Shown here: positions 1,381 through 62,413 of the stretch, in pieces | Numbering within the stretch: position 1 is the first letter of the stretch | Layout of the letters: each line of letters begins with the position of its first letter | NCBI GenBank assembly: GCA_016748015.1 | Contig: JAAOMT010000480.1 | Span: forward strand, 620,001 to 684,000 | From: Geosiphon pyriformis uo1 | Lineage: Eukaryota > Fungi > Glomeromycota | DNA: 64,000 nucleotides | Direction of reading: 5' to 3' | The notes under the pieces: generated by a model | The model's input: the letters and a program-made list of their open reading frames with translations, nothing else | Database searches by the model: none | Told to the model about the DNA's origin: nothing | Program-made: the position numbers and the translations under genes

Positions 1381-3415
1381 TTTATTTTTTTTTAATGTTA
1401 AAATCTAGTTAAATAAATTATTAAGTTGTCTTTTTTAATAAAATGTTTTATTTGTTGTATTATTTTTTTGTAAAATATTTTTTTGGACTTGTTATTATAC
1501 AAAGTTTAAATATTCGGTTATTATTTCAAATAATAATAATATTATGTTATTTAAAAAAAAAATTATTTGTAAAACACTAAATATAAACTTAATATTTTCT
1601 AATAAAAAAAAAGTTTAAACTTAGTTAATGAGTTACTAATAGAACTTAAACAGAACTTAAATAAATTCTTCTCTTTAATTTACAATTTTTTTTACATAGT
1701 TATCTACTTATATTTATAGTTTATTATATAAAACTATTTAAATAGGTTTTTTTAAGTGTTTTTAAAGTAAATTTTTTAGCTATTAATTATTATTTTTATG
1801 TTTAATTTTTAATTTTTTAATATTTGAAATAATTATTAAATAATTGAGTAGATATTGTTTTTAATTTCTATTTTGTTAGTTATTTTGTTATATTTTAATA
1901 ATACTTATATATTTTTTTAATTTTGTAATATATTAATTTTAATGATAATAATTGGTTTTAAATTTTATAAAACTTTATCTAATTTAATCAGTATTTTTGT
2001 GTTTTTAATTATAATATATTAGATGTTGATAATAACTTAATATAAAATAATTATAATAAATTATTATATATTGCTTAAATTAAAATTTTTTTTTCTAATT
2101 ATAATTTATATGTTTTATTTTCAAGTATTTTTTCAATATAAAAAATTTATTTTACTTTATTGTTTTTTTGCTTTAATATAATATAATAATACTGTTTTTA
2201 ATCTTAAATTTAACTAGTTTGTTTAATAACTAATTATTATGTCTTTTTTTTGTTTTTTGTAATACTTTAATGTTATTAACTGTTTTTTTGTTTTTTAATG
2301 TTTTTATTAAGTTATATATTTGTTTTAATAATGTTTTTTAAAATATAATTTTTGTTATAAAAATAATATAATTAATAGAAATAATATTTTTTTGATTAGT
2401 AATTTTTTTGCCATATTAACAAAAATATTAATTTTTTTTTGTTTTTACTAAATTAATAAGATTATTTTAATCAAAGATAAAAATATAATTTGTGTTATTT
2501 TTACTAAACTATTTGAATTTCTGCTCTTTTAATAAATTAAAAAATATAATATATTGTTTGGTTTTGTAAATAGTATTTGAATTTTTGTTAGATTTAAAAA
2601 TAAAATTTAAATTAAATTACATTTTAATTCTAATTTTTTGGTTTTATTAATTAGTTTATTAATCTTAAAAATTTAATAAATAATATATAATAATAAATTG
2701 TAAATAAAAACACAATTATTACAATATTTAAAATAACATAAAATAAAACAATATTTATAAAATTGATCATTAAAACTAATGTCTTTGTTTTTGTTTTTTT
2801 GGTTAATATTAGTAATTAATAGTATTTATTAAATTTTACTAAATTATTAAACAGAATAAAAGATAAATCTTATATAAAAACTTTAACAAATTATGTTTTA
2901 ATAATATAAAGTTTTTTAATTATAATATTATTTTATTTTAATTAATATTTTTTAAATTTCTTTATTATATAAATAATCTTTTAAATATAAAAAATATAAT
3001 TGTAAATAGCTTGTATTAAAATATTTTATATACTTAGTTTTTTATAAAAAATATGTATTATTATAACTAATATAAAATGTGTTTTTTGTTGTTTAAATTT
3101 ATTAAAATATTTTAAAATATATAAATAACAATAAAACTTTATAAAAATTTGGTATTTTTTATTATTATCATAATATATATTTATATATATAAATTTTTTT
3201 TATAATTAATACAAATAAGTTTTAAGTATTTATATTTGAATTTTTTAAAAATATTATGTATTTAATTATTAGAAATTGTATTTTTTATTATTATTAATAA
3301 TTAACAAGTACAATTTAACTATTATCTAAGAATATAAAATCAAATAAGATTCTAAATTAAATATAGCTTATGCTTTTCTATATTTAATCAGCTACTTAAA
3401 TCAATTAAGGTAGTA

Positions 3416-13576: not shown

Positions 13577-16500
13577 AAATAATAAAACAAAAATAAAAGT
13601 TTTTAATAAGACATATTTTTCTTTTTTAACAACTATTACAAAACTTAACATATTAATAAATGTTTTTTTATTTTTAGTTAAAAATAATCTAATATTTTTT
13701 GGCTGTGTCATTTTTTTTAAAGTATATTAATAAAAATCTAAGTACATATTATATAAAATTGTTTTTTTTTGTGTTTTTGGATTATTCTAAATAAGTTGTT
13801 TAAATTTTTGTAATTTTAATAATAAATAATATTGTTATATAAAAAATATTGTTTTGTTTAATATTATTATTAATGTTTTTTACTTAGAAACTAATTTTTT
13901 AATATTGTAAATATTTCCAAATATTTTTTAAAATTGTTATAGTTTTTGGAATTTATTGTTTATTATTATTTTTGCTGGTTGTTTGTTAAATTAATTAATT
14001 TTATTAGTATTTTAATCTTGTTTTATTCTTAAAAACTTATTAATATTAATATATAGTTTTCTTAGTTTATAATATATAATATATTTGTAGTTTGCAAAAA
14101 ATCTGATTTAACAAATTTGTTTAGTATTTAGCTTTAAATTTTTGTTTTGAAGTCATTTAAATTTAATATTATTAGTAATAATATTAATTTTTTTGGGTTT
14201 AAAATATAAGTTAAAATAAAAAAAAGTCTAAATTACAGCTATTATTTTTAATTTAGTTATTAAATAATTTTATTTTGCTGATTTTAAAGTTTTACTAATA
14301 TAAACAAATATTTTTTTATTGCTATTATTGTTTAATTAAAATAAAATAATACTAAAAACTATATAAAACATCTATAATTAATTGAAATTTTTTGTTAAAG
14401 TCAAGATAAACTAAAATTAAGACTGTTAAAAGTTTTTTTAAGAGTGTTATAAACTTTTTGCTGTTTTAAAGTTTATTAATATTTAATATTTTTATTGGTT
14501 AAGTAGTTAAATGGTTTGGCAATTTTTAAAAATATTTTGATAAAATTTCAATAATAAAATACTAATTTCTGTAAATTTTTTTAATTCAATAGTGTTTTAA
14601 GAGATCTTAAAATTTTTTAATTAGATTTAATTTTTTTTTATTAATAATATAATTAAAAAAACCAAAATTGGTTTTTTAAAATAGTTTTTTTGTTTTATTT
14701 CTGTTTTTTATAATTGTTGAAAAACTTTCTGCAATTAAACTAATTAAAATTTAAATAATAATAAGTAAATATTAATATTATTAAAATAAATAACGACTAA
14801 TTATTATAAGAGTTTAGTATAAACAATATTTATGAATTATTAAAATATTACTAGTGTATTATATAATTTAAAAAACATTATATTAAACTTATAATTTTTT
14901 TTGGATAATAAAAACTGTTTTTAAATAGTCTTTAGAATCTATTATAACTTATTGGTATTTACTTTCTAAATTCAATATTAAAAAGTATTTAAATTTTCTA
15001 AGAATATTTAACATATTATTAATTTATAATAATAAATAATTATTTCTAATTATAATATTATTTAATTGATAATAGTTAACACAAAATTGTATTTTTATAT
15101 TTTTTTTAATATATACTATTAATAAAGTTTATAAACTTATTAATAGTTAAATAAGTTCATTGTTAAATATTTATTGGACTTTTTTTTAATAAACTAATGG
15201 CTACTAAATAGTATCTAATAGACTTATTGTTGTTTTAGTTTTGTATTTTTGATATAAATTTGGTATTAAACTAAATTAGATCATTTTAAATTATTATTGT
15301 TTTTAGCAAATATGTTTATATATTTTATAATAAGCTGTTTAAGCTGTTTTTGTTGTTGTAATTCTAATTGTTTTATGTTAATTTAAGACAATTTTTTAAT
15401 AATAACATGATAATTTTTGATTATAAGAACTAAATTGAATTTCAAAAAAATATTTAATAATTTCTATAAAGTTTGTAACTTTTTATGATAATTTTTATTA
15501 AAAAATATTATTATAAATAATTTTAATTTCTAAATACTTAATTAATATAACAAAATGGGTTTTAAAATTGTATAAAGTAATTTTAAATTCTTTGATTCTT
15601 TAAACAAATAAATATTTAAAATTAAAATTTTAAGTTTTTTGTAAATTTGTTTATTTGACTCAAAAATTTATTATGTAGTAATAAATTTTGGGCAAATATA
15701 TACTTCTTAAATTTTTCTAAAATATAAGAGAGTAATTGTTTTTAATAATCTAAGAATATAATAAAATTTGTTTTATACATTAAAAACTATATTTACTAAA
15801 ATTATAAATTGTTTAATTAATTCAAAATTTTGAGTTTTTTAATTATTTTCTCCAAAATTAATTCAATTTCTGATTAATTACAAACTTAAAATGTTAATTA
15901 AGAGTAAATAAATAACTTGAATAATGTTTTTAGCATATTTAATTGTGAATGATTTTTTAGTTTTATTTTAGAGTATTATTGTAATGTTTTTAATATATTT
16001 TACATTAATAATTAAAAAACAATTTATAATATTGTTTTTAATAAAATTTTTAAACCAATTTTAAGATTAATTTTGGTTAAAAATTTTGGTTATAAAATCA
16101 AGATATCTTTTTTTAAATAGTATAAATTATATTTAGTATTAATTTTATTTTTTTAATTTTGCCAAATTTGATTTTATCTTAATCTATTTTAATAAGTAAT
16201 AATATATTAAAGACATTGTATTCTAAATATTATTGGTTATTATACAGCATAATATATTCTTTGCAAAATTGAATATTTATTTGCTTTAAATATTAAATCT
16301 GAGTTTTTTTTGAAGAATAAATATGATTAAATATTAAGTAATAAAATTCAGTTAGTTCTAAAATATATTAAATATATTCTGTTTTTTTTATTTACCAAAC
16401 ATTTTTTTGAATTTTTTTGTTAATAAAAACGATTGTTAATTTGTAGATAATTTCAATATTATCTAAATAATAGTAAAGTTTGTTGAAATACTGTTGTGAG

Positions 16501-17891
16501 TGGTCATAAAAAATGGTTATTTTTTAATTTTTTGGAAATAGAAAGAACATATTAACAAATCTGATCACAAATATTTATTCTTATTAATATATCAATTTAA
16601 TTATATTCTTTTAGTAATAGTTTTTTACATATAAAACAAGATATATTGTTTTATTTTTTTCTTAAAAAAGCTAAATTATTTATTATGGCAAGTTTTGTAT
16701 TAGTAGCATATTTGGTTTTTGTATTTTTCTTTGGATAATATACAAACTTCTATAAATAAAAGTTTTTTGTTGCAATTTTTGCATTTTAGTAAAATATATA
16801 TTGGCTGTTTTTGTAATTCTTTTTTTGAGTATAAAATGTATTTATTTATTTATTGTTATTAATATAAATTATTGGTTGGAGTTTTTAAATTATAATAATA
16901 TTGTTTGTGGTTTAAAAGTTTTAAAAATCTGTTGTTTTGTCTTTTTGATTTAATTAAACTATAAACTGAGCATTATATAAGTTTCTGTAATTGGTTTTTC
17001 TTTTTTTTTCAAATTCAAATACAAAAACTTTCTTAAATTGTTTGTTGAAAGTATTAAAAATAACAAGTACTTTAATGTATTGTCTTTAATATAAAATTTT
17101 TAAATTTTGGGTTTTCTAATCTAAACTAGCATTGGTTTTGAAAAGCCAATTGTTTTTGACAAAAGCTTAATATTGGAATATATTTATAATTAATATTTTA
17201 ATAAGAATAGTGATTTTGTTAATTGTGAAGGAAAAATTGTCAATTTTTTTTACAAACATTTTTTTCATATTATTAGCTGTAATAATTATTGTTTGAACAA
17301 ATCTGTCAATATTTTTTTTAATTTTTGTATCAATTAGTAGATAATAATACTTTTGGCAGATTATTGTTTAAAATAAGCCAAATTAATTTTCTTTTAACTT
17401 TAGTTTCAGTATATATTGCTATAATTGCTTTTTGTTTTAATGTTGCTGTATTACTAAGTAAGAACAATTAATTGGCTTTGAATTTGAATAAAAATATGTA
17501 TAAAATATTGGTATTTTCAGCTATTTTTGTTGATAAAATTGCTGTATTGCTAGAAGAACTTTGTTGTTTTGTTGCAGTTCTACTTTTTGAGAGTGCAATA
17601 AGTAAAAATTTTGGTATTCAAATATTATAAAATAACTGGGTTGAGTGTAAAAGTGTTTAAACAATTAATGATTGTTGTTATAAGATACTAATTAGTTATT
17701 AAGATTACTTCTACAGTACCCCCGAAAAGTAATGGCGGGGTAACTCTTGCGGCGCGTAATTCTTATTATGGTCCGATCAGCTATTGTTAAGACATTTTAA
17801 GTAATAATTTGTACGCGCATACATTCCATGCTACTATTTTTATTTTTTAAAACAAAATTGTTTTGATCAATAACGCGTTTTATTTCTTGTA

Positions 17892-30417: not shown

Positions 30418-30467
30418 TATAGAAAATAGCAAAGTTCAAGTTCATAGAATAGTGTTATGACAAGTTG

Positions 30468-30475: not shown

Positions 30476-33073
30476 AAGAGCTTCTTTCTTCAAGAAAATG
30501 TATCTTACTTCAGATTTAATAATTAGAATCATCCTTTACACATAAAAACAAAATAAATATCAAATAAATTCGAAAAAGCCAAATTCTTAATTACTTCCTT
30601 CGAAATTAACCAATTCTTACTAACAGTTGAAATTGATTAGCTACCAATTTCAGTAGACTGTTAAAGCACTTCCAGGTCTGGATCTGAAACAACTTCCATA
30701 AATTACCAGTTTTACTTTTTCTTTTACATTTCTTTTATTCTCTTTCTTTTCTTATTATAAATCATTTGGGTAGCCTATGGACAAGAATTCCTGTAGAAGA
30801 GTTGACTTTTACAGCAAAGTAACTACACATTTTAGTAAGCTTTCAGACAAGCAATTCCTGGGAAAGAGTTGACATTTACTACAACATAACTATACAAAGT
30901 AACTGGCATGGAATTGGCCATTCCACTTATAAGCCCAGCAGTTCAAATTATAGGAGATAATTTGAAGATAAATTCAGTTATCGGAGGTTCAAACACTTCC
31001 CATAATCGTGAATTAACAGCATTACAACAAACATACAAGAGCTAAGAAGAGACCAAAAACCTCCAGTAACATCATCTTTTATATAAGAAAAAAAAGGCAA
31101 AAAAAAACTAATAAAGAACTACAAACATTAATATTAGTTTATTTAACTTTGAAATAAAAAAATCAATCATATCAATCTTGAAATTAATTTGTATTGATTA
31201 TAAAAAAAGTTATTTTTAATAGATACATGTGTTAAAAATAATAAAATATAATCAATTACTATCAGATACTATTACTATCTTTATATACTAAAACAATTTA
31301 AGTAATCAAAACAACAAAACAAATAGAATAATATGTTTTAAATATGACAAAATTTTATTAAATAAAAAACTATAGAATAATATTTCTGGCAAAAAAAAAC
31401 ATGTGACAAATTCTGTTAATATATTATTCTAATTAATAATTAGACCCAAAAAAAAATTTTATTTATTATAGTCTATAGTTAAACAATAAATTAACTAGAT
31501 TTATATCTTTATAATAATAATAAAATTTAGAAAATAATTATTGTAAAATGAAAAAATGCTATAAATAAGGAAATAAATATCATAAAAAATGTCTTGGTAA
31601 TTATAAAAAAAATGAATAATTTATTTATTAATAACTTTAAAGTATTTTAAGACCAGTATTAAAAACTTATTATTATTTAAAAAAAACAAAAACAAAAACT
31701 AGCCAATTTTAATACAAAACTGTACAATTATTGTTTAATTTTTTGTTATTTTTAGTATTATAATAAGTATAATATTTTATTTAATTTATTTTTATAAATA
31801 CTTTATTCTATTTTTAAGCTTAAAAAACTTATAAAAAAGTACACATTAGCAACAAAAAACATGATATTTTAAGAATTAAGTATTGTTATCAAAATAAAAC
31901 AGTACCTTGTCTATTTTAATTTCTTTAAAAAATTAGAACTAAAATATTATAACAATAAAAATAAAGACATATGTTTTAAAAAAACATATTCAAATAATGC
32001 TAGATTTAATTTAAGATATCTCAAACAATTTTTTATAGTTATAATATCTTATTTTTTTATAAAAATAGATTTAAAATTAGCTTTAAGAATTTTCATTAGT
32101 ATTATAATCTAAATTGCATTCTAATTTAATCTTATAAATAAAGAAATTAATATTAAAAAAGAAATAATTAATACTAGATATATTGAAAATATAATTATAA
32201 TATTTTAAAACAATTTTGATAAGTCTTATATAATTAAATCTTAAAAAAAAATCGCACAAATTATCTTTCTATTTTTCATACAAATTTTTTAACTAATTTT
32301 AGTAATTATGTAAAAAAAATTAGGTTTTATTACTTAAGAAATTCAAAAATTTAAGTCAAGTAGAAAAAGAAATATACAAGTTAGTTTCGTAAAAAACACT
32401 AATAACAAAGTAAAATTTATTTATATTAATACTGTTATTTTTATTTTTTTATATTAACAGTACATTTTGAAGATTAATCAAAAAGTTCAAAACCAAGTTT
32501 TACTATTTAATATGGTCTTAAAAATCTGTTTTCTAATTGATATTGCAAATTTGTATATATTTATCAAAGTTTATAAATATTTTAATATTCTTATTCACAA
32601 TTTTACTAAAAATATTATTAAGATTTTTGAAAAAACTCTCATTAATTCTATTATTTTAGATATTTAAAATTCTGAAAAATCTTTAATTTTACACAACTGT
32701 TCTTATTTTGCAATATTATTTTACAAATATAAAATTTGCTAAAAAAAAGCTATTTATTTATTATAAAAAAATCAATAAACTAAACTTGAAAAATTTAAGT
32801 ATCCTATAGCAAATAATTTATTAAAAGAAACAACTTAATATTATATTATAAAACAACATACTAATTGTATTTAGTATTTAAATATTGTTTAATTATACTA
32901 TTAAACAATTTACTAAAGACAATTATAGTTAATAATATAAAACAAATAACAAATTTACAATTTAAAGATCTACAAAAAGCAATACTTAATACAATAATTA
33001 AATATTATACTAAAAAAACAATTTTTATAAATACATATAATTTTGCAAAAACTTAATTCTAAAAAAAAAAAAA

Positions 33074-36964: not shown

Positions 36965-37407
36965 CTAATCTGTTATTTGTATTATTTGATAATATAATTA
37001 AGCTGTTTAAAATTACTAAAGTTTTTAAAATTAGTCTTAGTATATACAAATTATGTTTATTTTTTTAAGGTATTAGAAACATAATTTTTGTATATATAAA
37101 TATATAGTGTTGTTTTAATTGGTTTAAGTAACTAGTTACATATAGCTAAATACATAATTTATATTTAGTTAAAGTTATTTAGTTTAATATATTATATTAG
37201 ACTGTATTTAGATTTTATTTATTAAATATAAAAAAAATTAGTATAAAATTATTTTTATAATTTTTATTATTAATTTTTTTTATTAATATTTAACAAGTAA
37301 GATTCAAATACTGTCTAGTACAATACATCACATATAAGCAATCTAAACTAGGTGTAAATCATGCATTTTCTATATGTAACCAGCTATTCAGGCTAATCAA
37401 GACAACA

Positions 37408-44211: not shown

Positions 44212-46075
44212 TATAATCCAACAAAAAAACCAGCACCACAACACTTATCCAAAACAGTGACAGAATCCAAAGAAACAGAGACAAACCATTTGAAATTTGC
44301 AAAATTTTTATTCTAATATTATCACACCCACTTTGGATTAACAAATAATAATTGGCCAACAGAATCAGCTTTCAATTGTTATGTTAATGAAAAAATTGTA
44401 TATTACTTGAGAAGCCAAAAAGATCCAAAATCTGCCTTTAATAACTTTTTCAGTGAACTACTCTAAAGTACCACTCTTTCACAAAACTACTTATTTGTAC
44501 TTCTAATTACAGAAATAAACTGAAAAATTGAAAAATACACCAAGCAAAAATTCCCTATTACTTTTGCCAACAAAGAAAAAGGAAGGTTACAAACACTAGC
44601 AGAAACACCAAAGCAAATTCAATTATTCACTTAAAAGAAAAAAAGATTTTATTCATCTGCTAATTCATTATACCACTATATACCTAGAAGTATTATCAAT
44701 ATAATAAGCATGAATACAGCAAGTGGGACAGCACTATTAAACAGAATTCTGTTTCAAAGTAAACAAAAAAAAGCAGAGTTATTAGAAACATATGGAGATT
44801 ATTTTGAAAAATTTAAATCGCAATCCCTAATGCCATCAGGAATTTGATTACCACCACTACAACCAAATTTTGAAGTCATTAGTCCTTAAAAAATAACCAA
44901 CTCTGAGAAAGAGAAGAGTAGTAATCAGGAAATTAGCAAACAAAACCCAATCCTAGAAAATTCAGAAATTAAAACTTCAGTTAATCAAACTCCAAAAAAT
45001 CAGAATGATCAAAACCCCAATAGTATTACTCAGAAAAACTTACCTTCAGTAATTGTGATCAATCCACCTCCAGCTCCACCAATTAACAAACAACAACAAC
45101 AACAGTTACAACAACCACCCCAGCAGCAACTACAATAACAACCACAACAATAACAACAACTATTATTAATACTAATAGCATATGGACCTATTGCCAAAAT
45201 CGAGAAATTTACCAGCGAGGAAGACAACACCCAAGTATGGCTCAACAATATAGAAAAAGCCATTGTAGTTAATGGTTGAAATGATAACAGAGCCCTTCAA
45301 GCAATCCCTTATTTCTTACAAGATACTGTTGACTCATGGTATCAAAGTTTAGCCACCAAATCTCAAATGTTCCAGAAATTTAAAATTGCATTTTTGGAAT
45401 ATTTCAGTAATAATAACAGTATTAATCACCTAGCTAATGCATTTACCACAATTAAACAGAAAGAAACTGAAGCAGTCACTACTTACCTAGGATGCTTTTA
45501 CAGGAACTTGTGCCAAATCTAAGCCATCAACACCAATTATTTTACCATAGCCCAAATCTTGAATCAATTCATTCATAGATTACACAGCAACATTCTATAA
45601 TAAATACGTCCATTATATTCAGCCAACTTTTAAGCAGCAGTTATCCAAGCTAGAGATTTTGAAGCAGCTGAACTTAAAGCCAATTATGCCCAAGCTGTAA
45701 ATTTAGTAATAAACAGATCATCTGAATTGGATTCCAAATTAAAACAACTCAATAATTTAATTAATCAGAAATTAGAAAGATACTTAGCTGACAATCGTGT
45801 AATTTATCAGCCACCTCAATAACACAATAATTCTGGAAACATAAATTGTTTCCAAAATTAGTCGCATCCTGTTTTATCATTCAATCAGCTGTGACAACAG
45901 GAAATACATGCTTGCCACTATTGTGGTAGACAAGAACACTTGCAAATCAACTGCTGCCAACATTTAAATAACCAACAATCAGGAAATCAATATCAAAACT
46001 CCAATCGCCAGTCTCAAACTCCAAATTATCAATCAAACTCAGCTTCATATCAACCAACTTACCTGTCACTAACAC
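44206..46075 (+). pseudogene. E2 gag, 5' part (capsid-like domain and CCHC zinc knuckle)
   Basis: IAKIEKFTSEEDNTQVWLNNIEKAIVVNG, AIPYFLQDTVDSWY, IKQKETEAVTTYLGCF and CHYCGRQEHLQINC (~45910-45955). Start approximate. Confidence 0.85.
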
Positions 46076-47048
46076 TGTTACCAGAGGTTTTTGGTCTCTT
46101 TTCTTAAATGTTGTTAATGTTGATTTGCTGTAAATTCACGTTTTCAGAAAGTAGTTGGATCTTCAATAACTGAATTTATTTTTAAATTATCTCTTATAAT
46201 TTAAACTGCTGGACTTATAAGTGGAATGACCAATTCTGTGCCAGTTACTTTGTGTAGTTACATTGTAGTAAATGTCAACTCTTTCCCAGGAATTGCTTAT
46301 TTGGAAGCTCACTAAAAATGTGTAATTACTTTGTTGTGAAAATTAACTCTTCTACAAAAATCTTGTCTGTAGGCTAGCCTAATAATTATGATAAAAAAAG
46401 AAAAAAAAAAGAAAAAAAATGTAAAAAAAATAGAATTTTATCAAGAGAAACATTTTCTATTCAGGCCTGGAGTCACTAACAGATTACTGAAATTGGAAGC
46501 TAATTAATTTTAAAAACATTAGTTGTGTTGAGAAAATTTTAAAAGCAATAATCAAAGGTTTTGGTTTTCGAATATTTAATTTTTATTTGAATATATAAAA
46601 AGGTAATTTGTTTTAATTAAGATATCTAAAGTGAGATATTCTGTTAAAATACTATGAGAAAATACATTTTTTTAAAGAGAGAAGCTTTTTTTTTATACAA
46701 CTTGTTGTAGTACTAGTCTTTAAACTTGCACTTTTCTCTTTGCTACAATTTGGGTAAACTAATAATACATTTCGGCAACTATAAATTATTTCACTGAACT
46801 ATTTGATTATTTCGGCCAATTTTCATTAATTTCGGCGAATTTTGATTATGTTAAATGGTTCAGAATATTGTGTAATTTGATCATCTTAATTTCTAAAGTA
46901 CAAATTAGATTATTGATTGAATAATGATATTTGATAATTTGATTAAATAATAAGTAATAATTGAAATAATAATAATATATGCTAATTAATAATAGGAATT
47001 ATGAAGGTAATTTTATGCCAATTAATAGTTAAAATTCTACTGATAACA
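46076..47048 (-). repeat. E1 3' LTR
   Basis: Direct repeat of 55017-55989, preceded on the minus strand by the PPT. Confidence 0.96.
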
Positions 47049-47737
47049 TAATCTTCTCCTTAAGACTAAGCTCTATCAAAGTCCAAGCATTATTTGTGAT
47101 GTCAAGATAGTAGTTCAAGATAATTGAAGTGATCTGGTCTGAAAATTGTTAAAATTTCAGTTCTGTAAACTTTCCAATATATTGAATCTTTATTAGATAG
47201 AGTATTGGATTTTGTAGAATGTTTTCACAAGTGTTAAATAAATTATCAAGTCTGACTGCTGCTCTAAGTTTGTAGTGAGTGTTTGTTGGTCCAGCTGCTG
47301 TCTTGAATTCATTGTGGATTTGTTTTTGTATAGTCTTAAGAGTAGTGTTAGTTGTTTCAAGTTTCAGTTTTCGTTTATACAGTGTTTTTCCAATATGAAA
47401 ATATCTATATATGAGAGTATGTTCATTGTTCTGTTTATTAAGAAATAGTAGAAGTTTTTGTTGAATTGTGGCATTTGGTGGAATGTCAATAGGGGCAATT
47501 AAAAGATTTTCTTTCAGTGCTTGCTTCAAAAGTTCAAGTAATCTATTTTCAGAGTTAATCTCTTGTTTTTCTTCTATAAAAATAATAGTTTTGAGAATTA
47601 TTTACTACTGGAGCTGTTGTTTCTTTCTGAATGTAATTAATTTGACTTTTATTAATTGTTATGAATAAATCAGGAAGTGTTTTTAAGGCTAACATTAATT
47701 TTTGGGATATTTGTTGAATATTTCGGGGAATAATCAT
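47029..47737 (-). pseudogene. E1 accessory 3' ORF (~235 aa, unknown function); one frameshift and one CAA>TAA stop
   Basis: ORFs 47555-47737 and 47149-47529. The second frame continues past a TAA through the PPT into the LTR (…TLIELSLKEKIMLSVEF*). Confidence 0.75.
47049..47061 (-). promoter_or_regulatory. E1 polypurine tract
   Basis: AAGGAGAAGATTA lies immediately before the 3' LTR TG. Confidence 0.8.
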
Positions 47738-47949
47738 GATAAAATGACCAACTAACTAATAAATAAAAAGAATAAAAAAAAAATTATTTTTGGATGTGAG
47801 GGTTTTTATTTGTTTTTGGATTTGGGTGTTTCTTGTAATTATTTACTATTTTTGTTTTCTGTTTTTGTGTGTTATTAAAAAAAAAATTATTGTAAGAATA
47901 TGTTAAATTAAATATTCAAGTTTGGTTGTTGTTCTATTATAATTTTTGG

Positions 47950-49293
47950 TTCTAAATTTCAGAGAATATTTTCAGGATTAATTAAAGAAGAATGTGTACC
48001 AATTTGTGGAATTAATGGCTCAGAATTGTTTCTGGAATAATAGTGTTTTAATCTATTTTCATGTGCAACTTTTGCTAGTACTTTGTTATCAAGTCTTAAC
48101 TTGTATAAACTATTGCCTAGAATTTCATGAATATAAAATGGTTCATTTTATTTGTGTTCAAATTTTCTACTCCATTGTTTTTTAGCCTTAGTTCTATATA
48201 AGAGAACTTTATATCCAACTTTAAATTCGTTGGTAACTGGTGGTAATTTGTTGTCATGTCTTTCTTTTTATTGAGCTTGGAAGTGTTCAATATAAGTTGC
48301 TGCTATCTGTCTTTTTCCTTTCAATGTACTAAGAAGAGTGTAGGCTCTACTTTGGAGTGTTTCTTGAAAGTTTTTTTCATTGATTGGTTGTACTAGATAT
48401 GTTTCCACTGTGAAATTAATTGGTAATGTTGCTGTCCTTCCATAAGTTAAATCAAATGGTGTGTGTTTTATAATATCTTGTTTTAGTGTTCTGTATATTA
48501 ATAACACTAATGAAATAAAAATATCCCATTCCTGTTCAAAGTCTGTTGAGACTTTGGCTAAAGATTTATACAATGTTCTGTTGAAACGTTCTACAAGTTC
48601 ATTTGTTTAAGGGTAATAAGGTAATAATAAAGGTCTTTTGACATTGAATTGTTCACAAATTTTTTGTATCAGGTTGTTCACAAAATGTGTTCTTTGATCA
48701 GATAAAAGTTCAATTGGGCATCCATGTCTACAAATAATGTTTTCATAAATAAAATTTGCTACTGATTTTGCATTTGCTCTTTGGATGGCTCTAGTTTTAG
48801 GCTATTTGGTAAGATAATCTATTGCAACTACAATATAATGATTTTCTTGGGTTGTGATAGATAATGGTTCGACTAAATCAATTCCAATTTTGTCAAAAGG
48901 TTGTCCAACTTTGATTGGATTTAAAAGTTCTGTGGGGTGAGTTCTTTCTCTTCTTTGACAACTATCACAAGATTCTACATATTGTCAAATGTTTTTTTGC
49001 ATGTGAGACCAAAAATAATGTTCAAGAGTTCTTTGGATTGTTTTATCTCTTCTCAAGTATGCTGAAGATGGATCTGTGTGCATGTTGTATAGGATTGTTT
49101 CTTTTTTATTTTCCTGTACTAATCTGAATGATTGGTTTGGGTTTCTATAATTTTTGTAATAAATTTTGTTGTAGTGTATAAAATATTGTTTGAATTGGTG
49201 TTGTAATCGATGTTTTTTACTTGGAGACCAATTTTTTGGCATGGTTAGAGTCTCCAAATAGTTTTTAAAATTGTTGTAATTTCTGGAATCCAT
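47950..49293 (-). pseudogene. E1 integrase
   Basis: MHTDPSSAY…CDSCQ (HHCC), PFDKIGIDLV, LSDQRTHF, LVERFNRTL and a GPF-like C-terminal module. Confidence 0.9.
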
Positions 49294-49369
49294 TGTTGTT
49301 TGGTTGTTTTGTTGATAGTAGTAAGTTGTAGTGGATTTGTTGATGGTATTAATCTTATTTTATTCTTAA

Positions 49370-50700
49370 AAGGCTATTAACATTGGTGTGTAGTTTCCCT
49401 GGTTTGTGGTGTATAATATATTTGTAGTCTATTAAGAAGTCATTTCATCGAGACTGTTTGGCACTTTGTTCAGTTTTCTTTTTATTGAGCTATTTGAGAC
49501 CAATATTGTTAGTTATAATGTCAAATTCTTTTCCATTTCTCAAATATTGTTGAAAATGTTTAAGAGCCCAAATAACTATGGCAGCTTCTAGTTTTGTTGA
49601 GCCATATTTGAGTTCTGTTGGCTTAAGTGTTCTACTAGCATAGACAATCACTTGTTTCTGGCTATTTTTATTCAATTGTGATAAGATGACACCAAAAGCT
49701 ATGTGTGAAGCATCAGTAGCTAGTTGGAACTATTTGTTGAAGTCTAGGTAAGCAAAAACTGGGGCTGTTGTCAATCTTGTTTTCAGAGTTTTAAAAGCTT
49801 TTTGTTGTTTTTTTGTCTATTTGTATGGCACATTTTTGTTGGTAAGATAATTGAATGGTTTGGCAATTTTTGAAAATTCTTTAATGAATTTTTGATAATA
49901 AGAGACTAATTCTACAAATCCTTATAGCTCTGTGGTATTTTTGAGAGTTTGAAAGTTTTTGACAACACTGATTGTTCCAGAGTTTGGTTTGACTCCATCT
50001 TTGCTAATTATGTGTTCAAGAAAGATTAAGCTTGTTTTTTCAAAGTAATATTTCTTAATGTTCAACTTCAATCCTGCTTTCTATAATCATTAAAAAACTT
50101 CTCACAGGTGAATAAGATGAACTTCAAAGCTTGATAAGTACACATTAGTGTCATCAAGATAGACAACTACTGACTGCCATAAAAGTTTTTCATATACAAT
50201 ATTCATGAATCACTGAAATGTTACTGGTGTATTGCAGAGTCCAAAAGGCATAACATTGAACTTATAGTTTCCTTCTTGAGTAGTAAATGCTGTTTTAGAT
50301 TGATTTTTTGGATCTATTTCGACTGTCAGTATCCACTTTCCAAGTCTAAAGTTGAGAAAAACTTGGCTTTTCCTAAAGCATCTAGCATGTCATCAATTCT
50401 TGGAAGTAAATAGGCATCTTCAATTGTCATGCTGTTAAGCTGATAATAATCTATGCAGAATCTGATTTTTCCGTTTTTTTTTTAACAAAAACTACTGATG
50501 AGACCCAAGAACTTCTTGATAGTTGAATCAATCTATTACTGAGCATTTTTTGGACTTCTTCTTTAATAAATTGGTGGCTAGCAGGTGGAACTCAATAGAC
50601 TTATTGTCATTTTGGTAGAGCATTTCCTGTGTGGATTTGATGTTGAACAATATCAGTTTTTCCAAGGTTATTGTTGTTTTTTGCAAATATATCTGCAAAT
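49370..50700 (-). pseudogene. E1 reverse transcriptase and RNase H
   Basis: [35 protein letters not shown] (~50147-50167), ATDAS and YASRTL...LEAA. Confidence 0.92.
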
Positions 50701-51189
50701 TCAGCTATCAGTTGTTTTAATTGTCTTTGCTGTTGGGGTTCTAAGAGACCCATGTTAATTCGAGAGAGTTTTTCTTTCAAAAGATGGTAGTTTTCAGTAA
50801 TAGGAATGATATTTGAATTTGGGAGTAGAGTATGCCTTACAATTTCGATAAAATTAGAAACAATTTGAGGGTTTTTATCTTGAAAGATGTTACTGTATAT
50901 AATTCCAATCTCTAATTTGTTCAATAAGACAATGGAGTAATTATTGAAGTTGTAGAATATAACTCAAAATTTTTTCATTTCTTTGGAAATATAAACGTTT
51001 GGGATTAAGATTTCATGCTTCAAACAAATTTGTTTATTGGATTCAAAAATTTGTTGGGTAGTGGTGGGTTTTGAGCAAGTGTAAATTTCGTAATGTTCTC
51101 CAAAAAGTGAAATGGTAATTGGTTGAGAAAGTTGAAAAATTTGGTGAGATTTATTCTGTACATTAAGAGCTATGTTTACTGACACTGTA

Positions 51190-51635
51190 AATTGTCCAGT
51201 TGAACCAAAACCTTGTATTCTTCTTTTACTTTTTTCCAATTGTTCTCTGTTGTTAACTGATTGTAAACCTGAAATGTTGATTAAGGGTAGATAAATTGCT
51301 TGGGCAATTTTTTCAGCATGTTCAATCCTGAATGGTTTGTCTGTTTCATTCTGCAATATGATAATAATGTCTTCAGTATATCCTGCATCTATAATTCTTT
51401 CTCTAACATTAATTTTTTTGCTTGCCAGTAATGATTGAGAAGCAATTTGTACCATTGCTCCTAGTGGTATTTCAAGAGCAATTCTGAGGTTGATTTTGGT
51501 TATGAATTTTGGTTGAAGAACTAAAGTGTCTTTGTCAGAATATCTGAAGTTGTATTCTGTATCAATTTCATGAGCTTTTTCTGGTTTTATTTCTTGTCCA
51601 TTGTTGTCAAAGTATTTGAGTTGTATAGCAGGCTG
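51190..51635 (-). pseudogene. E1 dUTPase domain within the polyprotein
   Basis: In ORF 50964-52313: motif 1 DTEYNF (decayed DAGYDL), motif 2 SQSL (SRSS), motif 3 IIDAGYT, motif 4 EKIAQAI and motif 5 RRIQGFGSTG. Confidence 0.92.
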
Positions 51636-51734
51636 GTTTTCAGTAAGATAGATTGGTGTTGTTGTGATTTCTTTTTTTGTTTCAGGTTTTCCAAATTCGA
51701 TTTTTTTTTGGTCATTTTTACTGGGCAAGAAAAT

Positions 51735-52345
51735 GTTAAAAACATAGCATTCTGGACACCATTTGTCATCACAAAGCATGATGTATTCTTTACACAATTG
51801 AATGTTCATTTGTTCTAATTGTTGAATTTGAGCTTTTTGGATTGGATAAGTGTGGCTTGCAATTTGGTGGTAGGTTTCTACTTTATCTTCATAATCAAAT
51901 CCAGCTAATTTTATGGTATATTCAATGTATTTAGCTTCTTTTATTTGGTGAACATCTTCTTGAGTGGCTCTATTAATTAATGTCATTGCTAAGTCAAAAA
52001 TTATTTCAGCATCATGAGAATAGTAGTAAAGTTTATTGAAAGCACTGTTATATACTGCATTAAATGGTGTTTCTCTTCTGACTTTTTTCGAAATTAATAA
52101 AACATATTGACAGGTTTGATCACATACTTCTCCTTTTATTGCAACATCAATCCAGTTGTATTCTTCTGGTAGCATATCTCCACATGTGAGGCAAGATGTG
52201 TTATCCCATTTTCCATTTTTTTTTGGGGATCCAAATCGTTCTCTATGACATGCTTTGCAGAAGTAGCAGGTGTGAGTTTCATATTTCTCTTCTGGGGAAA
52301 TACAGGCTTTCATAAATAAAAGCTTCTTTTTGTAATCTTTGTATT
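51735..52345 (-). pseudogene. E1 Cys-rich domain of unknown function between protease and dUTPase
   Basis: CYFCKACH...WDNTSCLTCG...CDQTC...LCKEYIMLCDDKWCPEC, in frame with the dUTPase. Confidence 0.75.
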
Positions 52346-52544
52346 TTAGTGGGATGTATGGTGGTTCTTTTCATAGTTCTGATGTGGAATACTAAACTTT
52401 CTTCTATCTTCTTGTTTTTTCAAAACTTTTTTGTTCTGTTTCCTTAGCCTAATTGAATGTTGATCCAAAAGCCATGTAGGTTTCAGTGAGTGGCATTTTT
52501 TTCTTCTTCTCAAATTCAAATACTGGGGCTTTTTCTGATTATTT

Positions 52545-52935
52545 GTTGAAAGTACCACAAGTAGCAGATACTATGGTGTATTGTCCTTGGTATGAAATTT
52601 TTAGTTCTTGAGTTTCTCAGTCTAAGTTTGCATTTGCCTTAAAAAGCCAATTGTTTCTAACAAGAGCTTAGTATTGGGGTGCATCCATAACTAAAACTTT
52701 GACTGGAATGATGATTCTATTAATGATGAATGGGGAATTGTCAATTTTTTCTACTGGTGTCTTTTTTATATTATTTGCTATAACAATTACAGTTTGGGCT
52801 GATCTGTTAACAGTTCTTTAAAGCTGTTGCATTAACTGGTAGGTGATAATACTTCTAGCTAATCCATTGTTTAGAATTAATCAGATGGGTTTTTCTTTTA
52901 CTGTAGCTTTAGTGTACATGGCAGTGATAGCTTTT
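52545..52935 (-). pseudogene. E1 aspartic protease
   Basis: ITAMYTKATVKEKPI*LILNNGLARSII (decayed LILDSGSAGSII) and a decayed ALVGNDWL. Confidence 0.8.
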
Positions 52936-55000
52936 TGTTTATTAGCTGCTGCATTACTAAGCAAGAATGGTGATTCATTTGCTTCAAATTCGAATGGAAA
53001 TATATCTGAGAGATTGGCATTTTGAGCAATTTGGGCTGGTGGAATAGTGTTGTTGGAAGAGTTTGATTTTGGTGCTGCAATTTCATCTTCAGAAAGTGAA
53101 ATTTGTTGAAAATTCGATCCTTCAGACATTATAAGATAACTGGGTTGAGTGTGATAGTGATTGGGTCTTTGCTGACCAGAATTTCGGGGAACCAACTGGT
53201 TATTTGGATTGATTCTGTTGTTGTTATTCTGAAATTGATTTTGGGGTGTGAATTAGTTATGTTGAACCAATCTTCTGGCTGGTACTTGGTATTGTTGAGT
53301 GGGTGGTGTTTGATATTGCTAAATTGGTAAAGATTGCTGATATTGTTGCTGCATTAGTTGTGAAGCTGGTTAATAGTAACTGTTTTAATTTTGTGGTCTT
53401 GATAAATAATAAGTTGGTAGTGAAAGTTGGTAATAAGATTGTTGTGGTAAAGAGTAATATTGATTACTCCTGTTTTGTTGGTCTCTTTGTAATTTCCTAT
53501 AATCTTGTTTCCAGTGTTCTGAAATTCCACAATAATGACAAATTTGAAGTTGGTTGTTAGATGGTAATCTAAAACTGTTTTGGTTGTGTTGTTGTAAGGG
53601 TTGATATTTTTGTGGTTGTTGCTGCTGTTGTTGTTGGTTTGTAAAATAGCTTTCAATCTTCTTTGTGAGTTGGTCTATCTTTTCTTCAGCTGCTGAGCTA
53701 GTTTTTTCAATGGCTAGGTTGACAAGTTTGGTGTGGTTTGCTTCTTCCATTGCCATTTTATAGTTCTTTGCATGTCTAATGGCAGTTGCTAAGTCTGTTG
53801 GTACATGTGAACAGACTTTCTTAATCAATTTGTCTTTTAATCTTGCTATAAACTGATCCAGAATCTGAGTATTGAAATAGTAGTCATTGGTTTCCAATTG
53901 TCAAATTTGTTAAAGAAGTTTGTTGAATTTCCCAAGATAGATCATGACAGTTTTAGATGTTTTTTGTTTGATATTGTGAAAGCAATTGTGGGGAGTAATA
54001 GAGATGTTGTTTTTAGTAAATTGTTGTAAGAAAGCATTTTTGAATGCTTGTCAGTTTTCAAATGATTCTTCTAAGTTTTCAAACCATTCTTCTGCAATTC
54101 TTTGAAGAAAGTATAGGATTGCTTTGAGCATTTTTGCTGCATTTTAACCATCTGCATCTCCTGCTTTTTGAACTTTGTTAAGCCATTCTTGAAGACTGGT
54201 ATTATTATTTTCACTAATAAATTCTGGGATTTTTGCAATGTAAGCAGTTGTTATTTCTTCTTTATTTTCTGTAATTTTTTCTGGTTCTGATTCAGTTTTT
54301 TCATTGTCTAAGTTCTCTGAATGATTACTTTCATTTTCCTGTAAGTAATCAATGATATTGGTGCTTGTTGATATTGGTTTCTGCTGTTGAGTAGAATTTC
54401 TGGATAACTGAAAGTCTTTTGGTCTAGAAAAACGGTTAAGTAGTGAATTTGGTGTTTGTAGTCAAGCAAGTAAAATTGAAAATAGTGTAATAGAAAGTGG
54501 TAATTTGACACTGGTTCTTTGTTCAAATGTTTGCAAGTGTTTGGCAGTTGTCTTTGGTAGTATTGAAGTGTTTGGAGTGGTTCTTGAGTATTGTTTCACT
54601 TTTTGTTTGCCTTTGTTGCTTGTTTCTGTTTCTGATTCAAAGTCAAGAGAGTATTTGAACTGTACTAAGTATTTTTCTTCACAATATTCAATAATGTTAA
54701 ATTTAAGTTCTTGGAAGTAGGTAGCAAGTGTTTTACTATTCAGGTCTTCTGTTCTCAATTGTGAATAGTGCACTAAATTATTGTAGAGATTGTTTCTGAC
54801 TTCTAAAATATTGTAATTTCCAAAAAAATAGTTGTTAATACGATTTTTAATGTATTAATATAGTGATTTCTTGAAAATTTCAATTTCGTCTTGGATATTG
54901 AATCTTTGCTTGCAGTGTGTATAGATTGACTGATAATACTTTAGAGTTGTTGTGTTTGGTGTGGTCACTACTTTGAATTTGTTGTTGCTGTATTATTTCC
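52936..55000 (-). pseudogene. E1 gag (capsid-like domain, CCHC knuckle, Q/N/P/Y-rich linker)
   Basis: ORF 53385-53897 (QILDQFIARL…CHYCGISEHWKQD), AYIAKIPEFISE and AILYFLQRIAEEWF. Confidence 0.85.
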
Positions 55001-55016: not shown

Positions 55017-55989
55017 TGTTACTAGAGGTTTTTAGTCTCTTTTTTTGAATATTGTTAATGTTGATTTGCTGTGAATTCACATTTCCAGGAAGTAGTTGGA
55101 TCTCCAGTAACTGAATTTATCTTCAAATTATCTTCTATAATTTGAACTGCTGGGCTTATAAGTAGAATGGCCAATTCTGTACCAGTTACTTTGTGTAGTT
55201 ACATTGTAGTAAACATCAACTCTTTCTTAGGAATTGCTCATCTGGAAGCTCACTAAAAATGTGTAGTTACTTTGCTGTAAAAGTTAACTCTTCTACAGAA
55301 ATCTTGTCTGTAGACTACCCTAATAATTATGATAAGAAAAGAAAAAAAAAATAAAAAAAATGTGAAAAAAATAGAATTTTATCAAGAGAAACATTTTTTA
55401 TTCAGGCCTGGAGTCATTAACAGATTACTGAAATTGGAAGCTAATCAATTTCAAAAACATTAATTGTGTTAAGGAAATTTCAAATACAATAATTCATGGA
55501 TTTGGTTTTCGAATATTTAATTTTTATTTGAATATGTAAAAGGTAATTTGTTCTAATTAAGATATCTAAAGTGAGATATTATGTTAAGATACTATAAAAA
55601 GATACATTTTCTTGAAGAGAAAAGCTTTTCTTTTATACAACTTGTTGTAGTACTAGTCTTTGAACTTGCACTTTTCTCTTTGCTATAATTTGGGTGAACT
55701 AATGATACATTTTGGCAAATTACAAGTTATTTCACTAAACTATTTGATTATTTCGGCCAATTTTCATTAATTTTGGCAAATTTTGACTATGTTAAATGGT
55801 TTAAAGTATTGTGTAATTTGATCATTTTAATTTCTAGAGTACAAATTGGATTATTGATTGAGTAATAATATTTGATAATTTGATTAAATAATAAGTGATA
55901 ATTGAAATAATAATAATGTATGCTAATTAATAATAGAAATTATGAAGGTAATTTCATGTCAATTAATAATTAAAATTCTACTGGTAACA
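55017..55989 (-). repeat. E1 5' LTR
   Basis: Direct repeat of 46076-47048, followed on the minus strand by the PBS. Confidence 0.96.
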
Positions 55990-56870
55990 ATGCAACAGCC
56001 AATGTATTAACTACCTGTATATCAATCTCCAATTTATCAACCACAGCTACAAGTAATATATTAACCATAGTCACAAGTAATATATCAGCTTCAACAAATT
56101 TGAACACTGCCACAAAACTTACTTCAAAACAAAACCCAAAGGCCGAGAATAATACAACAAAGCTGGAGATTGGCAATAATAGTCTATCAACCAATTCCCA
56201 GTTCTTCAACCCAGCCATCAGAATTTTGACAATAGAATTCAGGCATCAGGTACAACCAAAACCCAAATGCCCAACACTATTTAAGTTTTTTGATTACCCA
56301 AAAGATGCCGCATTCAATAATCAGAACCCCAGCCAAAACCAATCACCTATCAGCAATATATCCTTAGCCATCATAATCAATGATGAATTGTTAGCAGCAA
56401 TTTTCTCCTTTGAATTTGAGAAACTGTTACAAACACTATTATTCAGTGGAGCCGTTCTTAACACCAAATCAATCATTGCCATGTATACCAATGCCAAAGT
56501 CAATAGGCAACCTATCAAACTTATCTTTAATAGCAGATCAGCTGGCAGCATCATAATAAGACAACTCATAAACCAATTAGGTCACCAAATTAATCACACT
56601 GCCAATACTAAGATTATTATTGCTAATGATATCACAAAAACATCTATTGGTGAGATTAACAAGTTTCTATTTGAAATCAATGGTCTTATTACACCCATTA
56701 AAGTCTTGGTAATAGAAGCCACCCAATACCAAGTTCTAATTAGTAATGACTGGCTGTTCAAGACCAACACTGTATTTGACTGGATCACCCAGAAACTACA
56801 ACTCAGCCAAAATGGTTAATACATATGAGTTCCAGCCATATATAGACACTTTAAAGCTCTTTCAAACAAA
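55990..56870 (+). pseudogene. E2 gag linker and aspartic protease
   Basis: YQPQ-type repeats, then AMYTNAKVNRQPIKLIFNSRSAGSII (decayed LILDSGSAGS) and VLISNDWL in ORF 56100-56819. Confidence 0.85.
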
Positions 56871-57184: not shown

Positions 57185-57835
57185 TGCTGACCAAAATTGG
57201 TATGCATTAATTGTAATAAGAAATTGTTATTAATGAGCACATATTGTGATAATGATAAGAAATACCAAACAGCAACCAAGTTTTATTGCCACCCATGCAT
57301 CTTTAAATACTTTAGAAGACCAAAATGAGTTGAAAAATGGGATAACAAACCATGTTTGGCTTGTGGAGAAACTCTTTTAGATAAAAGAATATAGAATAAC
57401 ATTCTTGGACGAGGAGAAATATGTAATAAATTGTGTTAATACATGATTCTAATAAGTGACTGGGTTAGAAAAAGAACACCAATAGAAGCTGCCTGAAGAA
57501 GAGCTGTAAAATGTCTGAATGGATGTCCACACAATGATGACAAAATCTGGCAAATGACACTTACCAAAATCGAAAGAGTCTTATTAGAAGAAACAAGAAT
57601 GATCAAAAACAACCTACCAGAACTCATAGAATTAGACTGAGACCCAGAACCAGTCATAAATTTTCTGGATTCAGAACAATTTTATGAACACTACCAAGAA
57701 TTAGCACTCACAAGAGAAGAGCAAAAACAATACTTAAAGCAGCTGAACACTTGACTGTATCAACACTGCCTAATTCTATGTGACTTTCAATATTGTAATA
57801 AGTGTGACCTTATTTACAATCTATCACCACACATG
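57185..57835 (+). pseudogene. E2 Cys-rich domain of unknown function
   Basis: CINC...FYCHPC...WDNKPCLACG...CNKLC...CPH...HCLILCDFQYCNKC, homologous to the E1 domain. Confidence 0.75.
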
Positions 57836-58045: not shown

Positions 58046-58478
58046 GAACTTAGATGGTTCAGCAATAATAATAAAAATATTATGCCAGAACATGCACATA
58101 ATACTGATGCAAAGTTTGATTTGAGATATTCTAGAAAAGATGTCATCAAATTAGAACCATATTTTCACACATGCATTGATCTCAAAGTAGCACTGGAAAT
58201 TTCAGCAACAACAATGGTTCAATTAGTATTCAGGAGTAGTTTAGCAAAAAAAGAAATCAACATCAGAGGAGAAATAATTAATACAGAATATGTAGAAAAT
58301 ATTATTGCTATGCTACAAAATAATTCATAAAAGGCCTATATCATAGAGCCAAATGAAAAGATAGCACAAGTAATATTTCTGTCTTTGGTTAAAGTAGCTT
58401 AATTAGTATTAGTAGAAAACAGAAAAGAATTGGGAATTACAGCTAAAAAAATACAGGGATTTGAATCAATGGGTAGGA
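58046..58478 (+). pseudogene. E2 dUTPase domain
   Basis: DAKFDLRY, RSSLAKK, GEIINTEY, EKIAQVIF and IQGFESMG. Confidence 0.88.
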
Positions 58479-58878
58479 TAGATGTACCAGTTAATATGGC
58501 AGAAGAAGAAATTATTGACAAGGAAGAAATTATCTTCACTAGTCAACCAATTTTCATTCCACCATATGATCAGTACATGGTAATTATAAAAAAAAAGTAA
58601 AAGATCAGATCCAGATTTTTGAGGCAGAAGCAACACTTTGTAAATCAGGAAAGATTGGATTAGTTAATCTACACATACCAGCCAAAAACCACAGTCACAT
58701 CAAAATTTCCATCTACAACAACACAAAAGATATCATTGAGATACTGAAAGGAACCACCATTGAATATTTAACTATCGAAATTGAAAAACAATTACCAAAT
58801 TTCATTTCAGACTTTCTACAACTGTGCAGATATTTAGATATTACATTTCAAACAATATACAGATGAGAAGAATGTTAT

Positions 58879-62399: not shown

Positions 62400-62413
62400 A
62401 AAAAAGAAAATAA

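What the first reader, a model, noticed from the sequence alone, without database searches (positions are those of the whole stretch)
51735..52345. Unassigned ~200-aa multi-Cys domain between protease and dUTPase
Seen: E1 and E2 (57185-57835) conserve CxxC…CxxC…GKWDxxxCLxCG…CxxxCxY…H…CxxCxxxCxxxxCxxC with a helical middle part, and decayed copies exist in E3-E5. Standard Ty3/Gypsy polyproteins have no such domain, and I cannot match it to RING, PHD or CXXC by eye. Inference: a multi-zinc module for chromatin or methylation sensing, integration targeting (I saw no chromodomain on the integrases, yet the elements land in other repeats) or counter-defence.
Basis: partly seen in the sequence, partly recalled or inferred. 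Interest (0 to 1): 0.72.

Follow-up and report, generated by a model that had tools for sequence, protein, structure and literature searches.

The report
Unnamed three-zinc domain in fungal retrotransposons
Dead jumping genes of a fungus carry a real, unnamed ~210-residue domain with twelve conserved cysteines between their protease and dUTPase; it likely binds three zinc ions and likely helps the element's copying machinery grip nucleic acid, but that role is untested.

Summary
E1 (51735-52370, minus strand), E2, E3 and E4 carry the same domain between protease and dUTPase of Ty3/Gypsy elements. All named homologues seen are from Geosiphon pyriformis; three unnamed records extend it, one being an uninterrupted protease-domain-dUTPase-RT polyprotein. 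No Pfam, PHROGs, NCBIfam or PDB sequence profile names it. AlphaFold (pLDDT 76) gives two small finger-like units and a helical core; the best Foldseek rows are GATA, LIM and FYVE fingers but none is significant. Best reading: a three-zinc accessory of the particle whose basic arm and treble-clef-like fingers likely bind nucleic acid beside the dUTPase (40%). Methylation sensing, integration targeting and counter-defence found no support here: all window copies decayed by C-to-T change, and nesting is expected in an LTR-rich genome. The scan earlier noted smaller Cys/His modules at the same position in other genomes; none resembles this one in sequence. A new variant of a known kind; moderate interest.

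The parts
51735..52370 (-). E1 multi-Cys domain (212 codons), in frame with gag, protease and dUTPase
52248..52343 (-). Predicted zinc finger 1 (CX2CX24CX2C; first two Cys now Tyr codons in E1), preceded by a basic arm
   Evidence: fold inferred
52110..52193 (-). Predicted zinc finger 2 (KW-x4-CX2CG-x-W-x9-CX3C-x-Y): knuckle, hairpin, helix; treble-clef-like (inferred)
51801..52109 (-). Helical core, acidic, about five helices; pLDDT 83-97 over its first part in the model of P0310
51747..51794 (-). Predicted zinc site 3 (CX2CX8CX2C; second Cys now a Tyr codon in E1)
   Evidence: pLDDT about 70 in one model, under 50 in the other
51195..51518 (-). E1 dUTPase (Pfam-matched part)
52374..54599 (-). 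E1 gag and protease frame, broken by many stops
   Evidence: (Retrotrans_gag E=9e-6)
47995..50481 (-). E1 reverse transcriptase, RNase H and integrase (H2C2, core, SH3-like end; no chromodomain hit), broken by stops and frameshifts
55017..55989 (-). E1 5' LTR (TG...CA)
46076..47048 (-). E1 3' LTR, 90.8% identical to the 5' LTR
57203..57805 (+). E2 copy of the domain (second family), stops inside, 11 of 12 core Cys kept; dUTPase follows at about 58046-58498. E1 is inserted in E2 (E2 LTRs about 43312-44192 and 62404-63307)
16233..16786 (-). E3 decayed, frameshifted copy; dUTPase remnant follows at 15788-16149
31198..31752 (+). E4 heavily decayed copy; dUTPase remnant follows at 31933-32256
3080..3205 (-). 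Possible fifth remnant (finger 1 only), marginal score
   Evidence: 6.4 bits against at most 3.1 in 20 shuffles

Best explanation
This is a conserved, unnamed ~210-residue domain in the single Gag-Pol frame of a Ty3/Gypsy lineage, predicted to bind three zinc ions through twelve cysteines, that likely acts inside the retrotransposon particle as a nucleic-acid-binding helper beside the dUTPase and reverse transcriptase. Shown: position, fixed order protease-domain-dUTPase-RT, twelve Cys kept across families, a basic arm and first finger and an acidic helical half. Predicted: two tandem treble-clef-like fingers, a helical core, a third C4 site. Inferred: the element's protease cuts the domain from the protease at a Y-hydrophobic-small/hydrophobic site; it is packaged with Pol; the basic arm and fingers hold RNA or nascent cDNA and keep the dUTPase (covalently where the downstream junction is not cut, otherwise by contact) near the site of reverse transcription, as proposed for the nucleocapsid-dUTPase fusion of betaretroviruses. 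The window's own copies are dead.
For: Order: of 184 stored proteins holding both the domain and a dUTPase, 183 have the domain directly before it; of 30 that run from the domain into RT, 29 have the dUTPase between (set chosen by the domain, so elements without it could not appear). All four clear window copies are followed by a dUTPase. Selection: 11 of 30 columns invariant over the groups are Cys although Cys fills 17 of 211 columns; P0310 against Geosiphon copies gives median identity 45, 46 and 48% for the fingers, 35% for the helical core, 26-29% for flanking linkers, 58-59% for protease and dUTPase. Fold: pLDDT 76, pTM 0.58; finger 2 shows knuckle, hairpin 72-80 and helix 83-96; the 7 best of 185 Foldseek rows are GATA, LIM and FYVE zinc fingers, though at E 0.58-1.3. 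Charge: the 25 residues before the first Cys are net basic in 13 of 17 proteins with an anchor match. Precedent: betaretroviral NC-dUTPase (PMC4531489 section 9) and an extra Zn knuckle after the dUTPase of bdelloid Juno elements (PMC5408684 section 3.1).
Against: No binding or zinc data exist; the function rests on position, charge and analogy. The whole domain is net acidic (24 K+R against 38 D+E in P0310), unlike nucleocapsid. Finger 2 has Asp residues where GATA fingers have DNA-contacting Arg (recalled motif). E1's gag already has a CCHC knuckle. A protease-site-like motif also lies just before the dUTPase in 27 of 150 anchored proteins, which would uncouple the two in those families. No fold match is significant, model coordinates could not be inspected, so the pairing of Cys into three sites is inferred from spacing. 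The cleavage motif was drawn up after seeing the junctions and is not more frequent in P0310 than in shuffles (2 against 1.5).
Confidence: 0.4

Rival explanations
1. The domain is released by the protease as a stand-alone regulator that binds the element's LTR or host chromatin (basic GATA-like fingers plus an acidic half) and raises transcription or counters silencing.
For: Basic arm and fingers with acidic helical half; GATA DNA-binding domains lead the non-significant Foldseek list; the same tetrapeptide TYVA stands at the Gag/protease and protease/domain junctions of P0310 and the motif recurs there in 68 of 99 and 122 of 190 aligned relatives; the host attacks these elements (81 of 88 and 114 of 123 LTR differences are transitions), so pressure for counter-defence exists.
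Against: All window copies are CpG-depleted and dead; no CXXC, PHD, ADD or other reader profile passes its cut-off (best hint zf-HC5HC2H 18.8 bits against a cut-off of 29.1 in one protein); a Pol-encoded protein matured inside the particle is poorly placed to act on host chromatin (inference).
Confidence: 0.2
2. It is a protein-interaction scaffold (LIM/MYM-like) that organises Gag, dUTPase and RT in the particle or recruits a host protein, without binding nucleic acid.
For: LIM domains appear among the best Foldseek rows and PINCH1 LIM aligns to residues 1-43 (Z 2.0, rmsd 2.2, 36 residues); overall acidity; invariant surface-type aromatic and Lys residues (KW, W, Y).
Against: LIM spacing and His ligand are absent; matches are at noise level; the basic arm needs another explanation.
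Confidence: 0.22
3. It targets integration to heterochromatin or repeats, standing in for a chromodomain.
For: No chromodomain hit on E1 or E2 integrase; E1 sits in E2 and a solo LTR sits in E4.
Against: RT, RNase H and putative cleavage sites lie between it and integrase; known targeting modules sit on the integrase C-terminus (recalled); nesting is expected with 41.2% LTR cover (PMC11952901 passages).
Confidence: 0.1
4. It is a dispensable spacer or passenger captured together with the dUTPase.
For: Narrow distribution; helical half only modestly above linker identity.
Against: Twelve Cys and several Trp/Tyr/Gly kept across groups at 34-64% identity while linkers vary in length and sequence.
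Confidence: 0.08

Closest known systems
dUTPase-bearing Ty3/Gypsy elements of fungi (PosPlaTy3-5 of Postia placenta; Phanerochaete and Tuber elements; PMC2864245 passages)
   Same: Ty3/Gypsy order PR-RT-RH-IN with a dUTPase between protease and RT.
   Different: Those are described as chromodomain elements and the passages read mention no Cys-rich domain before the dUTPase; here there is a 210-aa 12-Cys domain and no chromodomain hit.
Juno LTR retrotransposons of bdelloid rotifers (PMC5408684 section 3.1)
   Same: dUTPase between PR and RT with an extra zinc module beside it; no chromodomain.
   Different: Juno has one CCHC-type knuckle after the dUTPase; here a large C4-C4-C4 domain lies before it.
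Nucleocapsid-dUTPase fusion of betaretroviruses MMTV and M-PMV (PMC4531489 section 9)
   Same: Zinc-finger part N-terminal to a trimeric dUTPase, proposed to bring the enzyme to sites of DNA synthesis: the functional model used here.
   Different: There the zinc part is Gag NC itself (81-95 aa, basic, joined by frameshift); here a separate, larger, net acidic domain with no CCHC motif, downstream of the protease.
Tandem treble-clef zinc fingers (GATA, LIM, MYM/TRASH, FYVE; class names recalled)
   Same: C4 fingers with knuckle, hairpin and helix; lead the weak Foldseek lists.
   Different: No significant sequence or structure match; spacing, ligands and the helical core with a third site differ from each.

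Membership tests
Ty3/Gypsy LTR retrotransposon (host element) | pol order protease-RT-RNase H-integrase | tested here: met
Ty3/Gypsy LTR retrotransposon (host element) | paired LTRs with TG...CA ends and gag | tested here: met
   E1 LTRs 46076-47048 and 55017-55989; Retrotrans_gag
Chromovirus | chromodomain at the integrase C-terminus | tested here: not met
   No Chromo hit at E<=0.1 on E1 or E2 integrase read with X at stops; both end after an SH3_Tf2-1-like part. Decay lowers sensitivity; RT phylogeny not done.
PHD finger | C4-H-C3 ligand set with His as fifth ligand (recalled) | tested here: not met
   No His conserved at a ligand position over the nine groups; only a sub-threshold zf-HC5HC2H hit
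RING finger | C3HC4/C3H2C3 cross-brace in 40-60 aa (recalled) | tested here: not met
   All-Cys ligands, spacing 2-24-2-20-2-19-3; zf-RING_5 E=0.88 in 1 of 16 members
CXXC zinc finger | two CGxCxxC repeats (recalled) | tested here: not met
   Motif absent from alignments A2, A3, A6; no Pfam hit
GATA zinc finger | CX2CX17-18CX2C with W-R-R DNA-contact motif (recalled) | tested here: not met
   Finger 2 is CX2CX19CX3C with W followed by acidic residues; finger 1 has X24
GATA zinc finger | treble-clef fold | tested here: inconclusive
   GATA chains fill 5 of the best 7 Foldseek rows but at E 0.58-1.3, TM-score 0.14-0.16 over the query
LIM domain | two fingers joined by two residues, His as third ligand (recalled) | tested here: not met
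   20-residue linker, all-Cys; weak structural likeness of finger 1 (Z 2.0)
TRASH/FCS/MYM fingers | CX2CX19-22CX3C treble clef (recalled) | tested here: inconclusive
   Finger 2 spacing fits; no Pfam hit; MYM-type viral model at E=1.9; a 60-residue archaeal ribosomal chain aligns at Z 3.0, rmsd 4.9
NC-dUTPase fusion (betaretroviral type) | CCHC nucleocapsid fused to dUTPase | tested here: not met
   No CCHC motif in the domain; the gag knuckle lies upstream of the protease
NC-dUTPase fusion (betaretroviral type) | zinc part stays joined to the dUTPase and binds nucleic acid | not testable with these tools
   Needs processing and binding assays; junction motif differs between families
Any zinc-binding domain | zinc bound by the conserved Cys | not testable with these tools
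   Inferred from 12 conserved Cys in CxxC-type pairs; model coordinates not available

The most novel reading that the evidence does not exclude
The domain is a protease-released, three-zinc regulatory protein encoded inside pol that binds the element's own (methylated) LTR or host chromatin and shields or activates the element: a retrotransposon-encoded anti-silencing factor of a new fold that helped this lineage fill much of its host genome.
Probability: 0.12. Interest if true: 0.8.

Novelty: new variant of a known kind. Interest (0 to 1): 0.42.

Why it matters
It adds an undescribed, sizeable, predicted three-zinc domain to the parts list of Ty3/Gypsy polyproteins, in the lineage behind hundreds of 'hypothetical proteins' annotated in Geosiphon pyriformis; recognising it would clean that annotation. 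An uninterrupted natural version exists (P0310), so zinc content, fold, processing and binding can be tested directly. If zinc modules beside retroelement dUTPases arose several times, they point to a common need to place dUTPase at the site of reverse transcription; if instead it acts on chromatin, it would be a rare counter-silencing factor in a fungal LTR element.

Tried and rejected
Profile searches without a hit above cut-off: Pfam on the window domain, 8 members of A1, 6 longer proteins and 16 members of A6; PHROGs on 8 proteins; NCBIfam on A6; PDB sequences with A1, A4, A6 (A3 was swamped by its dUTPase columns). Fold searches: Foldseek PDB and viral, no E<=0.001; VIA-align best Z 5.2 and 4.7 among 48,161 chains, to unrelated helical bundles; the fingers were not folded alone, so a known fold is not excluded. 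No relative among viral contigs (172 pattern matches), metagenome contigs (213 and 592 matches) or phage records; these scans need near-exact motifs. The ESM Atlas gave no answer. Complex prediction of the domain with the dUTPase trimer: no verdict. No RNA holder listed. No whole genome is held, so genome-wide copy counts and nesting statistics were not made. The three fingers show no profile likeness to one another, and the segment after the dUTPase is not shown to be a second dUTPase (hhalign probability 3%). Rejected: within-family Cys conservation as proof of selection; a catalytic or fourth-zinc role for the His (Glu in three relatives); nesting as proof of targeting. Paper searches with no description of this domain: 0 papers; 0 papers; the Geosiphon genome papers themselves and supplements of the cited papers were not read and may bear on the claim that it is undescribed.

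Full report
Setting. The window is AT-rich repeat DNA. E1 is an LTR element on the minus strand with LTRs at 46076-47048 and 55017-55989 (90.8% identical, TG...CA ends), inserted in the gag-protease region of a second element, E2, on the plus strand. Pfam places gag, protease, dUTPase, RT, RNase H and integrase in Ty3/Gypsy order and finds no chromodomain. Gag, protease, the domain and the dUTPase share one frame in E1. A DNA run laid on 50900-52500 gave 7,798 matching contigs, with transitions at 243 of 264 differing places: a high-copy, decayed family.

Observation. The domain is at the stated place, in a 468-codon stop-free frame with the dUTPase. E2 carries a homologue at 32% identity. A domain profile that does not contain E2-E4 finds E2 (250 bits), E4 (92) and E3 (41, 34, 17 in three frames) against at most 3.1 bits in 20 shuffled windows; a fifth remnant is marginal. 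E1 keeps 9 of 12 core Cys and E2 11 of 12; the lost ones are Tyr codons.

Relatives. Word-index searches gave 178, 188 and 61 hits; all 120, 120 and 61 listed are named Geosiphon pyriformis hypothetical proteins (Glomeromycota, Archaeosporales). The full profile search of 1.84 billion representatives gave 368 hits at E<=0.001, of which 150 were listed and 125 were new; I looked up 20 of these, chosen as most divergent: 17 Geosiphon, 3 unnamed ENA records. The 218 weaker hits were not seen, so wider distribution is open. One unnamed record, P0310, is an uninterrupted 1,064-aa polyprotein with protease, the domain, dUTPase and RT.

Selection. Among 240 E1-family copies substitutions are almost all of the C-to-T/G-to-A kind (Cys to Tyr, Glu to Lys, and so on), so within-family conservation says nothing. 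I grouped 68 of the 70 rows of alignment A3 by eye into six Geosiphon families and three unnamed records (representatives 34-64% identical; two poorly aligned rows left out). Of 30 columns invariant over the groups 11 are Cys, and a twelfth Cys holds in 8 of 9 groups; finger 3 is covered by only six groups. The pattern is CX2CX24CX2C, CX2CX19CX3C and CX2CX8CX2C. Identity of P0310 to Geosiphon copies is 45-48% in the fingers, 35% in the helical core, 26-29% in linkers and 58-59% in protease and dUTPase.

Identity and fold. No Pfam, PHROGs, NCBIfam or PDB sequence match passes a cut-off; the strongest hint is zf-HC5HC2H at 18.8 bits against 29.1 in one protein. AlphaFold2 gave pLDDT 62, pTM 0.37 for an E1-family copy and 76, 0.58 for P0310: two finger-like units, each ending in a helix, then a helical core; the last cluster is poorly predicted in the better model. 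Foldseek finds nothing significant; the seven best PDB rows are GATA, LIM and FYVE fingers (E 0.58-1.3) and the viral list is led by NinG with HNH, MYM-type and DUF2116 entries below. VIA-align Z stays at or under 5.2. That these families are treble clefs is recalled. The fair statement: fingers 1 and 2 are likely treble-clef-like, and the domain belongs to none of the named families by their motifs.

Mechanism. The domain directly precedes the dUTPase in 183 of 184 stored proteins that have both and in all four clear window copies; the set was chosen by the domain. The arm before finger 1 is net basic in 13 of 17 proteins, the helical half acidic. In P0310 the tetrapeptide TYVA occurs at the Gag/protease and protease/domain junctions; a motif drawn from these after the fact recurs there in 68 of 99 and 122 of 190 aligned relatives and, 12 residues before the dUTPase strand, in 27 of 150. 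Its count in P0310 is no higher than in shuffles, and copies are related, so these are only candidate protease sites. The nearest working model is the betaretroviral NC-dUTPase, where nucleic-acid binding is proposed to bring the enzyme to sites of DNA synthesis (PMC4531489: passages and section 9 read); bdelloid Juno elements have a Zn knuckle after their dUTPase (PMC5408684: passages and section 3.1); fungal Gypsy elements with a dUTPase between protease and RT are known (PMC2864245: passages). I put 40% on a nucleic-acid-binding helper of the particle, 22% on a protein scaffold, 20% on a chromatin or transcription regulator, 10% on integration targeting, 8% on a passenger. Against the first: overall acidity, acidic residues in finger 2's hairpin, an existing gag knuckle and the possible cut before the dUTPase.

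Nothing here points to methyl or histone reading. The host does attack these elements (CpG O/E 0.14 and 0.10; 81 of 88 and 114 of 123 LTR differences are transitions), which gives a motive for counter-defence but shows no protection. Nesting is expected where LTR sequence covers 41.2% of the genome (PMC11952901: passages).

Novelty. Eight completed paper searches on the element or domain found no description (listings and abstract starts only, plus passages of PMC3248453, and PMC11105155); the library lacks most subscription papers and no supplements were read. The scan's own notes hold no look-alike by sequence but list small Cys/His modules between protease and dUTPase in other genomes; these are unchecked leads suggesting a recurring theme. 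Verdict: real, undescribed accessory domain in a known kind of element; function untested; interest 0.42.

Noticed in passing
window 47050-47991 (-); copy at 11958-12338 (-): E1 has a further decayed reading frame between integrase and the 3' LTR (150 codons open at 47152-47601), with no Pfam hit and a 46% identical copy in E3: a possible extra ORF3.
   Followed up: partly
window 54600-54992 (-): Gag has a helical-looking N-terminal extension of about 130 aa with no Pfam hit, shared with E3 and stored gene models.
   Followed up: partly
window 50967-51185 (-): A beta-rich segment of about 105 aa follows the dUTPase; it shares one short motif with the dUTPase but the profile match is not significant (probability 3%).
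   Followed up: partly
window 30083-31072 and about 36006-36969: E1-type LTRs without internal sequence; the first sits between E4's protease and its Cys domain.
   Followed up: partly
window E1 and E2 LTR pairs (46076-47048/55017-55989; 43312-44192/62404-63307): LTR differences are 92-93% transitions and are enriched after T: 93 changed against 109 unchanged cytosines in TpC, 30 against 114 in ApC. This exceeds plain CpG decay and hints at a RIP-like or deaminase-like process with a TpC preference.
   Followed up: partly
window 46072-46075 and 55990-55993: The four bases flanking E1 differ (ACAC and ATGC) in the way a target-site duplication holding a CpG would after decay on opposite strands (inferred).
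   Followed up: no
window 39838-40953 (-) and 5899-6870 (-): Decayed RT-like sequence of another type, probably LINE-like, matched by the N-terminus of stored protein P0152.
   Followed up: no
P0310 (unnamed ENA record, 19,119-base contig): An uninterrupted 1,064-aa Gag-Pol fragment of this lineage with all five dUTPase motifs recognisable (motifs recalled): a potentially young element outside the named Geosiphon set.
   Followed up: partly
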